Assembly (NCBI GenBank): GCA_002633005.1
Contig: NMRA01000696.1
Location: 1 to 59,397 of the forward strand
DNA length: 59,397 nt
From: Phoronis australis
Taxonomy: Eukaryota > Animalia > Phoronida
Direction: 5' to 3'
The notes below the pieces were generated by a model. The model was not told where the DNA came from. It did not search any database and was given only the letters and a program-made list of their open reading frames with translations. Made by a program: the position numbers and the translations under genes. Positions 55,701-58,700 of this stretch are shown in pieces. Position 1 is the stretch's first letter. Each line of letters opens with the position of its first letter.

Positions 55701-58700
55701 CTTCTGCTTACTCTACTCTCAAACATGCTTTCTGATAATCAAAAACAAAATTCTCCATTGAACCTTATCAAAATCATGCTATGCTACCAACGAACCTGCA
55801 CAATTTCTTACAACCATATGTTCAAAGTTTAAAGTGTCATTTAAATTTGCAGATTACGTAACTACAAATTCAATTTAGGATCGCCAAGAGTGTGCATAAA
55901 TAAGTTTAAAACACATCTTGGACGGACCAAATTAATTGCAAGATGAAGCCTTCAATACAAGTAAACAGCTTGACACAACACCTTTAATCAGAACCAAATT
56001 GTAACTGGGCAACTACCTGTTCCTTAGTTTGTGATTTAGCAACATAATCACGTCCCACTTTAATTCTGGGCTTCAGGAATGCTCTAGTAAACTCGGTGAC
56101 AGGAACACCCAGCAGCTTGCAAACTTTCTGGGCAACTGATAACAACAAGAACACAAAGATAACATAAAATAACATGGATTATAGCGACATGCACAATATC
56201 TAGGCAAAGGGGCAGTGTACAGTGCCTTCACTAACGTAGACCAATGGACTATTCCATGTTAACAAATCCACAGCAGTACCGCGTAGATACAAACTTATGA
56301 TAATATCTCACGATTAAGTAATGGTCTACGTAAGTGAGGGTGGCTATTGCCATACAGTGTTTTTGTAAACTTTGCAACATTTGATTGTTGCAATAAAAAT
56401 TACATACAATGCAATTACAACTAGCTGAAACTATTGCAACAGTCCAGAAAAACACTGTTGCCGTAGCTACAAGGCAGGGCCTGGTTAGAGAACTGAATCA
56501 ACACTGGCCTCCAACCAAAAGTGTTGTTAGTCAGGTCAACAAGAGATCACCAATTTACCATCGACAGGGACTGGGCTTTGGTCACATACTCAAACGGTCC
56601 CATTTTAAGTCTGGGCCTGAGTAGTGCTTTGGTGAGTTCTGTCACCGGAATGCCAAGTAAGGCACACACTTTCTGGGCTGCTGCAATGTAACAATCCAAG
56701 GCTGACGTTAAAAGGTCAATACTGGAAGACTCCCAGATTACCAGCCAGGCTACATATCTGACTTACCGTAAACGTTCGGGTTAACGCCCTGGGCGGTTAA
56801 ATTGGCAAACCCAAAAAATCGGGGGTGGGCGGTTAACCAGACATGGGCGCTTAAACGTGAAACTTCAAAAAATCCAGGGTGGGCGGTTAACCGAACATGG
56901 GCGCTTATTATGACAGGCAAGCGCCCTGGGCGGTTAATCTTACCTCGTGATCTAAGTACCCACACCACACACGTAGTCGTAGGCCTACTCGGAACGCGTA
57001 GCACTTTTCAAAGAGCGTTATCGTCACGTCGCCACATGACGGGAAGAATGTCATAACAGCGGATGATCCTAACAAAGGTTATCATGCCCTCAGATTAGTT
57101 ATTCACTATTAAATTTACAGAATTGCTGAGTAATAGCCCGTGCCGTCCTGCGGTCTTGTTATTTAGCCCTGTAGCGTAGAGCGCAGACGATCAGTGACCA
57201 CGCAGCCTTTACTTGGATTGCAACTATTTCATCTCGCTAAAGTGCGCGCGTGCAAGCTTCACGTGTTGCATCAGATTTATGGTTACAGTCTCATACTAGC
57301 TGCCAAGTTCATATAGTCAGAGAGCAGTTTTAAAATTGGTTGTAATAAAAGTTTGAAAACCTTAATTCAGATGTTTTTTGTGTTTGGGATGTTTATAGTC
57401 AACACTCCGTGACTCAATGACATTTTCAGTGTATGGTTCTGTTTTATCTCGACTGCCCGGCATTGCTCACTTGCGGTTGCGCCAAACATGCTCGGCAAAG
57501 AAGTAGGCCCAAGACAAGAATCGGGGTTAAGCGGCCGTGTGCCACTCGTCAATCGAGAATAAAATTTCGAGCCACGGCATAAATATGTGATAAAACGCTA
57601 CCAAACAGCGATGTTTCAATTCATAAACGATCACCTTACCAAACTTCGTGGTGGAAAAACATTTATTTTTTCATGCAAGATGTCCAGATTATCTTATTTA
57701 TACCACTTGCAATTTCGCACTGCGGCACTGTTCGGTCCCGTTGTTAGCGCGCAATGTCTCAGTCGGCTGACAATCGTGACTTGGAAATGCCGTCAAGTAA
57801 TATAACGCCCTCTTTCAATATGCATCTCGTTTTTTATGGCCAAAGATAGCGGCGGGATTCAGCACGCGCGTAGGGCCTAAGTGCGAGTCACCTGTCAATC
57901 ACATGTTGGTGTCAAGGTAACATGCACTCCGAAGTGTGGGAACTTGCGCGCGTGCACCACTACAAGTCACACATCAAAAGAGAATAGCCACAGTCCTAAG
58001 TAATAGAAACGGGCGTGACTACATACTTCCATTGTCTCATTTCTCTGGCCTGATTTTTTCGAATATATGTTTTATCAAGTGCACTGCAGACGAAAACTCA
58101 GCGCGGCAGACAAAGTCGCTGAAAGCGGAGGTTTTGACGCCGGCGGCGTTCTTAAACTTTGCAAACATGGGAAGAAAATAAAGTGACAAAAACGTTCAAG
58201 TATAATATTTTGAAGTGAGTTCATGACCCAAGACAATAACTCGTTACTTGTATAATTGCAATTCACATTGCTAAACCACCGGCGTCGTTGCGCTCACTGT
58301 GATCATCGATCTTTTTCTAAAAGTCGGGGAATCGCGCGTTTCCTTAGCTCTGGGCGCTAAATCTTTATTCTTTAAAAGTCGGGGATGGGCGCTTAACCGA
58401 GCAGTGGGCGGTTAAATCGAAAATCCACCTAAAGTAGGGGGTGGGCGGTTAACTGAGCATGGGCGTTAACCCGAACGTTTACGGTACTGACCAGCTAGGC
58501 TACATATCTGACTGCCTAACCAACCCTAATTTCAAGGAACTGAAATTTCAGTAGACAGGAACTCATTTGGCACTACATACCACCAGGACTGTGTTCTGTA
58601 GACACAAGAAACTCGCCAAAATGCAAGATCACGCAAGTCCTCATAAGATATTGCCATGCATTGAAAGCTAAGCACATGATCACACTAACTTTTCTGGAGA

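What the first reader, a model, noticed from the sequence alone, without database searches (positions are those of the whole stretch)
56017..56680. Mutually exclusive exon pair swapping the actin-binding cardiomyopathy loop of a non-muscle-type myosin II
Seen: 423 bp upstream of the canonical exon A (56017-56135, [40 protein letters not shown]) lies an unannotated paralogous exon B (56559-56680, [41 protein letters not shown]). B has an intact cag/gtaaat splice pair, no stops and 23/41 identity with mostly conservative changes. Both exons enter in phase 1 and leave in phase 0, so including both or neither shifts the frame. B has a CAGCAG tandem acceptor, giving 122 or 119 nt, both in frame. 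Known: this segment carries the CM loop (the PR arginine is the MYH7 R403 equivalent) and the TEDS position 16 residues before the DALAK-type motif. A has D there and B has E, so the TEDS rule is kept while the loop tip changes from G-R-D to G-P-F-E. Mutually exclusive exons are classic for protostome striated-muscle Mhc genes such as Drosophila Mhc; I do not know of such a pair for this exon in the NMII/smooth lineage. Inference: one gene makes two motors with different actin interfaces, e.g. cytoplasmic vs smooth-muscle.
Basis: partly seen in the sequence, partly recalled or inferred. Interest (0 to 1): 0.88.

Follow-up and report, generated by a model that had tools for sequence, protein, structure and literature searches.

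The report
Spare actin-grip exon in non-muscle myosin
The non-muscle myosin II gene of a marine invertebrate holds two old copies of the exon for an actin-gripping loop; RNA reads show the second copy spliced in at a few percent, so one gene likely makes a rare second motor predicted to grip actin differently.

Summary
Observation confirmed. Exons B (56559-56680) and A (56017-56135) are tandem paralogues, and only one at a time keeps the frame. The gene is a non-muscle/smooth-type myosin II of a probable lophophorate. RNA shows the upstream exon joined to B at the first CAG in 5 reads against 85 for A in one run. B is covered about 2-fold in a second run; a B-to-downstream joint was not listed. 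A and B share 23/39 residues with near-saturated silent sites (pS 0.72-0.74, pN 0.23-0.24) and unalignable flanks, so B is old and was long under selection. B keeps the actin-contact core and acidic TEDS residue but rebuilds the loop tip and drops residues invariant in 96 family sequences. No second copy was seen in 13 intron-bearing loci of other animals or in annotated isoform sets. This exon is not among the 11 published muscle-myosin clusters. Tissue use and function are untested. The scan had noted exon pairs in other genes of this genome, none in this myosin.

The parts
59017..59112 (-). Upstream constitutive exon (loop-4 region), ends in phase 1 with GTGAGT donor
   Evidence: joined to A in 92, 81 and 1 reads; joined to B in 5 reads
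56764..58486 (.). Multi-copy terminal-inverted-repeat element (26-nt perfect TIRs) in the intron, ending 83 nt before the B acceptor; probably incidental
   Evidence: reads on both strands with many differences and loose ends at both termini
56559..56680 (-). Exon B, minor alternative CM-loop exon, 122 nt; second in-frame acceptor at 56677 (use not seen)
56136..56558 (-). B-A intron, 423 nt; folds more stably than shuffles (weak lead for splice control)
56017..56135 (-). Exon A, major CM-loop exon, 119 nt, family-typical loop tip G-R-D
55464..55616 (-). Downstream constitutive exon (DAIAK motif to switch II), phase 0
39181..52306 (-). Twenty further modelled exons of the same myosin II heavy chain (motor, neck, coiled coil); all AG/GT, 1412 codons without a stop together with the three exons above; no other duplicated exon seen
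34629..37272 (-). Approximate span of the last tail exons, beyond an assembly gap at 37576-38355; boundaries not fully modelled

Best explanation
An old tandem duplication left two copies of the cardiomyopathy-loop exon in this non-muscle myosin II gene; exon A is used in most transcripts, exon B is spliced to the upstream exon in a few percent, and B likely yields a rare second motor predicted to bind actin with the same core but a different loop tip. Shown: only one copy keeps the frame, B is intact and spliced at its 5' side, and silent sites are near saturation while the protein is conserved. Inferred: transcripts with both or neither exon stop early and are removed by nonsense-mediated decay, which enforces exclusivity; B is enriched in a minority cell type or stage; replacing V-G-R-D by M-G-P-F-E (one residue longer, one positive charge fewer) changes actin affinity or speed and may loosen the folded off state.
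For: Frame logic. Five X3 reads join the upstream exon to 56680, against 85 for A; share 5/90, 95% interval 2-12%; B reads lie on the same strand as A reads. In X2 the depth in bin 56550-56595 (1.7 x 46 = 78 bases) equals two reads of 39 bases, the length expected if B joins the downstream exon (37 if it joined A); this is indirect. pS 0.72-0.74 vs pN 0.23-0.24, Fisher p 1e-6 to 2e-5; flanks no more alike than shuffles (p 0.39, 0.76); a neutral copy at distance 0.5 kept frame, splice sites and 22+ identities in 5 of 5000 runs, and in 0 of 5000 at 0.75 and above. B's acceptor scores 9.7 (above A's 9.1) and its donor 6.4 (A 5.7) on matrices from the gene's 23 exons. B keeps the contact core: L, M, V at the MYH7 404/406/411 positions (PMC8698748) and L, V, K at the NM2C 420/427/429 triad (PMC10942649). 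Family-foreign residues cluster in positions 26-39 (6 of 14) rather than 1-25 (1 of 25), p 0.005 post hoc. A CM-loop swap changed velocity 1.3-fold in Chara myosin XI (PMC8872768).
Against: Only 5 listed junction reads, in 1 of 3 raw runs of one study; the B-to-downstream joint is not listed in any run; 2 X3 reads run unspliced into the intron upstream of B. B scores 79 on a family profile where the lowest leave-one-out member scores 109 and A 130; it drops V26 and Q39 (96/96), the basic residue 28 (96/96 R or K) and K37 (91/96). This also fits late relaxation. At neutral distance 0.3, 6% of simulated copies passed. No B orthologue was found: 0 pattern hits in metagenomes, 0 of 28 candidates, 0 of 65 representatives, single copy in 13 of 13 intron-bearing loci. 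None of these sources held the window's own species or a close relative, so they neither support nor refute conservation.
Confidence: 0.68

Rival explanations
1. B was once functional but is now a relaxed, decaying copy that leaks into a few transcripts because its splice sites are still good.
For: Low use (5/90, one run); loss of family-invariant residues and a profile score far below all members; no orthologue found; a transposon inserted 83 nt before its acceptor.
Against: No stop or frameshift; length after the loop exactly preserved; the first 25 residues hold only one family-foreign change; at positions 32 and 34 B has the family consensus where A does not; the actin-contact core and acidic TEDS residue are kept; a hydrophobic residue at position 37 occurs in a striated-type myosin and other hits, and one other exon has a loop one residue longer (P0317, P0321, P0328, P0309).
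Confidence: 0.22
2. B acts mainly as a regulatory poison exon: inclusion of B together with A creates an early stop and lowers myosin output through nonsense-mediated decay.
For: B+A stops 20 codons into A's shifted frame; the B-to-downstream joint was not listed; decay would hide such molecules.
Against: A poison exon needs no conserved peptide, yet pN is far below pS; no B-to-A joint was listed (threshold 3 reads); the X2 depth arithmetic fits the downstream exon rather than A.
Confidence: 0.07
3. Assembly artefact or haplotype duplication.
For: The window has gaps and near-identical overlapping stretches elsewhere (1-10443).
Against: A and B differ at 42-43 coding bases, their flanks are unrelated, and independent RNA reads match B and join it to the upstream exon.
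Confidence: 0.01

Closest known systems
[quoted passage not shown]
   Same: Tandem paralogous exons of similar length and equal phase in a myosin II motor domain; clusters 6 (loop 4) and 8 (loop 2) also touch the actin face; common in lophotrochozoans.
   Different: Those are striated-type genes; this is the non-muscle/smooth clade. The CM-loop exon is not named among the 11 clusters (sections 6 and 8 part 1 read; 'cardiomyopathy' and 'CM-loop' occur 0 times). Cluster 6 (Daphnia exon 11) ends at the loop-4 motif, i.e. it corresponds to the exon just upstream of this pair (supplement passage).
Bilaterian non-muscle/smooth myosin II (vertebrate MYH9/10/11/14; Lingula XP_023930461, Watersipora XP_067929437)
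   Same: Best structural-database matches of both exons; 68% identity to Lingula over 1408 residues; same exon borders in other animals' genomic loci.
   Different: All 271 fetched proteins holding the region align to A without a gap, and listed isoforms of one species never differ in this exon. Vertebrates split smooth and non-muscle forms by gene duplication (PMC5167519); their known motor-domain splicing is by loop 1 and loop 2 inserts (recalled).
CM-loop variants between myosin paralogues (Chara myosin XI, PMC8872768)
   Same: Loops differing by one residue and one charge gave different velocity when swapped (1.3-fold).
   Different: Separate genes of another class; here the swap would be made by splicing, and the effect is untested.

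Membership tests
Homologous mutually exclusive exons from tandem duplication | Adjacent paralogous exons, similar length, same phases, intact splice sites | tested here: met
Homologous mutually exclusive exons from tandem duplication | Both or neither breaks the frame | tested here: met
Homologous mutually exclusive exons from tandem duplication | Each exon is spliced to the common upstream exon | tested here: met
   A 101 and 85 reads, B 5 reads
Homologous mutually exclusive exons from tandem duplication | Each exon is spliced to the common downstream exon, never to the other | tested here: inconclusive
   A: 99, 92, 1 reads; neither B-to-downstream nor B-to-A reached the 3-read threshold; depth arithmetic fits two B-to-downstream reads
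Homologous mutually exclusive exons from tandem duplication | Regulated by tissue or stage | not testable with these tools
   three coded samples of one study, 18-19% of each run read; X4 has almost no reads of this gene
Homologous mutually exclusive exons from tandem duplication | Both copies conserved in related species | tested here: inconclusive
   no close relative held; distant animals have one copy
Non-muscle/smooth myosin II heavy chain | Myosin_head domain plus long coiled-coil tail, closer to MYH9/10/11/14 than to striated forms | tested here: met
   Pfam PF00063; 72-80 bits vs 51 or less for striated chains
Published muscle Mhc clusters 1-11 | Gene of the striated-type clade | tested here: not met
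Published muscle Mhc clusters 1-11 | Duplicated exon at one of the 11 described positions | tested here: not met
   the alignment file of PMC3912159 could not be read
Actin-competent CM loop | Hydrophobic core, conserved lysine and acidic or phosphorylatable TEDS residue | tested here: met
   sequence mapping; the TEDS rule itself is recalled
Actin-competent CM loop | Measured actin binding of the B motor | not testable with these tools
   needs expression and assay

The most novel reading that the evidence does not exclude
This lineage builds a dedicated smooth-muscle or other cell-type-specific myosin from its non-muscle gene by swapping one exon, doing by splicing what vertebrates did by duplicating the gene. 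The B loop, lacking the family-invariant basic tip, tunes both actin grip and the folded off state, giving a natural single-exon experiment on the R403 loop.
Probability: 0.2. Interest if true: 0.75.

Novelty: new variant of a known kind. Interest (0 to 1): 0.5.

Why it matters
Exon swapping in myosin II has been described for striated-muscle genes, and in the papers read not at this loop. A review states that little is known of how the CM-loop tip affects motor function (PMC8698748), and the loop carries the classic R403 cardiomyopathy site. Two natural isoforms identical except for this 40-residue stretch would make that question directly testable, and would show a route to cell-type-specific non-muscle myosin without gene duplication. 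Reach is limited: one species so far, minor use, and exon pairs of this type are frequent in this genome (unchecked notes).

Tried and rejected
The run search listed no RNA holder by index; three raw RNA runs came by species label and were laid. Word search with exon B: 28 candidates, none significant, weak evidence. B-specific degenerate pattern in metagenomes: 0. The C-terminal 23 residues of B matched no PDB chain. Rfam: 0 matches in 55600-59100. Steric exclusion by a distant branch point: branch-like motifs lie 20-29 nt after B's donor, but 18 AGs precede A's acceptor, so not supported. Pairing of 56523-56535 with A's 3' splice site: p 0.045, the lowest of 23 acceptors, which is chance level. 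The intron's folding z (-4.1; -3.7, second lowest of 19 windows) stays a lead only. Multi-exon alignments A1 and A3 misaligned and were not used. Automatic exon fitting failed and borders were set by hand against splice sites and frame. The protein atlas gave no answer. No structure or complex was predicted: the spliced isoforms are not foldable inputs here. Both trees are quick searches without bootstrap; the careful search did not finish.

Full report
OBSERVATION. On the minus strand, an upstream exon (59017-59112) ends in phase 1, followed by exon B (56559-56680, 122 nt), a 423-nt intron, exon A (56017-56135, 119 nt) and a downstream exon (55464-55616). Upstream + A + downstream and upstream + B + downstream are both open. 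With both exons the frame stops 20 codons into A; with neither it stops one codon into the downstream exon. A and B share 23 of 39 aligned codons' residues, B has one extra residue, and tblastn finds no third copy in the window.

THE GENE. A hand-set 23-exon model (59112 to 39181) has AG/GT at every border and 1412 codons without a stop; tail exons continue beyond an assembly gap. The downstream exon scores 72-80 bits against vertebrate MYH9/10/11/14 chains and 51 or less against striated chains. In quick trees the protein groups with a bryozoan (SH-aLRT 98, 33 rows) and with Lingula plus the bryozoan (95, 19 rows chosen from the fetched proteins); best identity is 68% to Lingula. I infer a lophophorate; the species was not determined. 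Only this exon appears duplicated in the part of the gene inside the window.

RNA. Three raw stranded runs of one study were laid, 18-19% of each read. Reads on the exons are nearly all 99%+ alike, with one variant site, so they come from this species. Upstream-to-A joints: 92, 81, 1; A-to-downstream: 99, 92, 1 (8 further joint rows were not shown). On the narrower stretch, run X3 gave 5 reads that leave B behind 56683 and continue with the upstream exon's letters, against 85 such reads for A. This position fits the first CAG (56680) and not the second. B's share is 5/90 (95% interval 2-12%). In X2, B is covered about 2-fold against 101 A reads, below the 3-read listing threshold; X4 had 2 reads on the whole stretch and none on B. 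No B-to-downstream and no B-to-A joint was listed. The X2 depth at B's 3' end equals two reads of 39 bases, as expected for a joint to the downstream exon, which is indirect. Two X3 reads run unspliced into the intron upstream of B. So the 5' splice of B is shown, the 3' splice is only suggested, and regulation is untested.

AGE AND SELECTION. Between A and B, pS is 0.72-0.74 and pN 0.23-0.24 (Fisher p 1e-6 to 2e-5 over three gap placements), and the flanking introns are no more alike than shuffles. Splitting the silent distance evenly gives B's branch roughly 0.5 or more (inferred; saturation makes it imprecise). Neutral copies kept frame, splice sites and 22+ identities in 5 of 5000 runs at distance 0.5, 0 of 5000 at 0.75 and above, but 6% at 0.3. 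B's splice sites score as well as A's. B was therefore constrained as protein for most of its history; recent relaxation cannot be excluded from one genome.

WHAT B CHANGES. B's residue 23 aligns to MYH7 R403. PMC8698748 (passages read) names MYH7 V404, V406, V411 as the hydrophobic face on actin and says the tip varies in length and charge with little known effect; B has L, M, V there. PMC10942649 (passages) names the NM2C triad I420, V427, K429; B has L, V, K. The TEDS position (rule recalled) is D in A, E in B. The tip changes from V-G-R-D to M-G-P-F-E; loop net charge goes from +4 to +3. Of 283 proteins then fetched, 271 held the region, none with a gap, giving 96 distinct segments: V26 and Q39 are invariant, position 28 is always R or K, K37 is 91/96. 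B departs at all four and scores 79 against a leave-one-out minimum of 109. Family-foreign changes fall 6 in positions 26-39 and 1 in 1-25 (p 0.005, post hoc), which suits a rebuilt tip better than even decay. A striated-type hit has E-Y-V-T-K and a hydrophobic residue at 37 as B does, and one unnamed exon has a loop one residue longer (P0317, P0309), so such changes are tolerated somewhere. A CM-loop swap raised velocity 1.3-fold in Chara myosin XI (PMC8872768, passages), and the CM loop is held by head-head and ionic head-tail contacts in the folded off state of smooth myosin (PMC11944230, passages). Hence the inferred effect on actin kinetics and possibly on autoinhibition. In Platynereis the smooth/non-muscle gene is expressed in gut and heart smooth muscle (PMC5167519, passages), which makes a smooth-muscle role for B plausible but no more.

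OTHER SPECIES. Of 58 metagenome loci, 13 span the upstream to downstream exon with introns; all 13 show one copy. They represent fewer than 13 animals, and four have bryozoan-like peptides. The rest were incomplete, intronless or a different myosin. In 108 listed of 225 cluster members (molluscs, decapods, Owenia, Saccoglossus, one Lingula model), isoforms of a species never differed in this exon. The exhaustive representative search gave 65 hits, none B-like; the word search and the DNA pattern found nothing. The window's own protein and close relatives were absent from the listed hits (best 82% on one exon), so conservation of B is open; the pair is at least not general among bilaterians.

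EXCLUSIVITY. The intron is long enough for both exons to be used, so frame plus nonsense-mediated decay is the simplest mechanism (inferred; over 20 introns lie downstream). A distant branch point and a duplex over A's acceptor were tested and not supported; the intron's stable fold is a weak lead.

LITERATURE. PMC3912159 (sections 6 and 8 part 1, passages; its alignment file unreadable, its PDFs not read) lists 11 clusters in muscle genes, none named as the CM loop. PMC2257972 (section 7, passages, supplement passages) shows that the loop-4 cluster ends where this pair begins. PMC5583752 (passages; only a species table held as supplement) adds nothing. Ten full-text searches listed no paper whose title or abstract reports such a pair in a non-muscle myosin II; most listed papers were seen only as listings, and subscription journals are not covered. 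The scan's own notes hold no match for this myosin but several exon pairs in other genes of this genome (unchecked).

VERDICT. A real, old, transcribed alternative exon at a position and in a myosin lineage where I found none described: a new variant of a known kind. Functional minor isoform 0.68, relaxed leaky copy 0.22, poison exon 0.07, artefact 0.01. Interest 0.5.

Noticed in passing
window 56740-58513: A 1.7-kb element with 26-nt perfect terminal inverted repeats and internal subterminal repeats is flanked by a 24-nt direct repeat (56740-56763 / 58490-58513, 96% alike), longer than a usual target-site duplication.
   Followed up: partly
window 55464-59112, run X4: Run X4 has about 100-fold fewer reads on this myosin's exons than X2 and X3 while repeat-element reads are similar, odd for a supposedly ubiquitous gene.
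   Followed up: no
window 55602: One C/A variant in about half of the reads of X2 and X3 within the downstream exon.
   Followed up: no
window 1-10443: Overlapping near-identical duplications (97-99%) around gaps, possibly assembly artefacts.
   Followed up: no
window 17055-18926 and 20662-21582 (+): Open frames of 623 and 306 codons with no significant Pfam match; unexplained.
   Followed up: partly
protein P0309: Unnamed non-muscle-type CM-loop exon with a loop one residue longer than the family norm; could be a similar alternative exon in another animal.
   Followed up: partly
window 55728-58659 (-): Eight GCATG motifs in the introns around the pair, one in the B-A intron at 56192; no control was run.
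   Followed up: no
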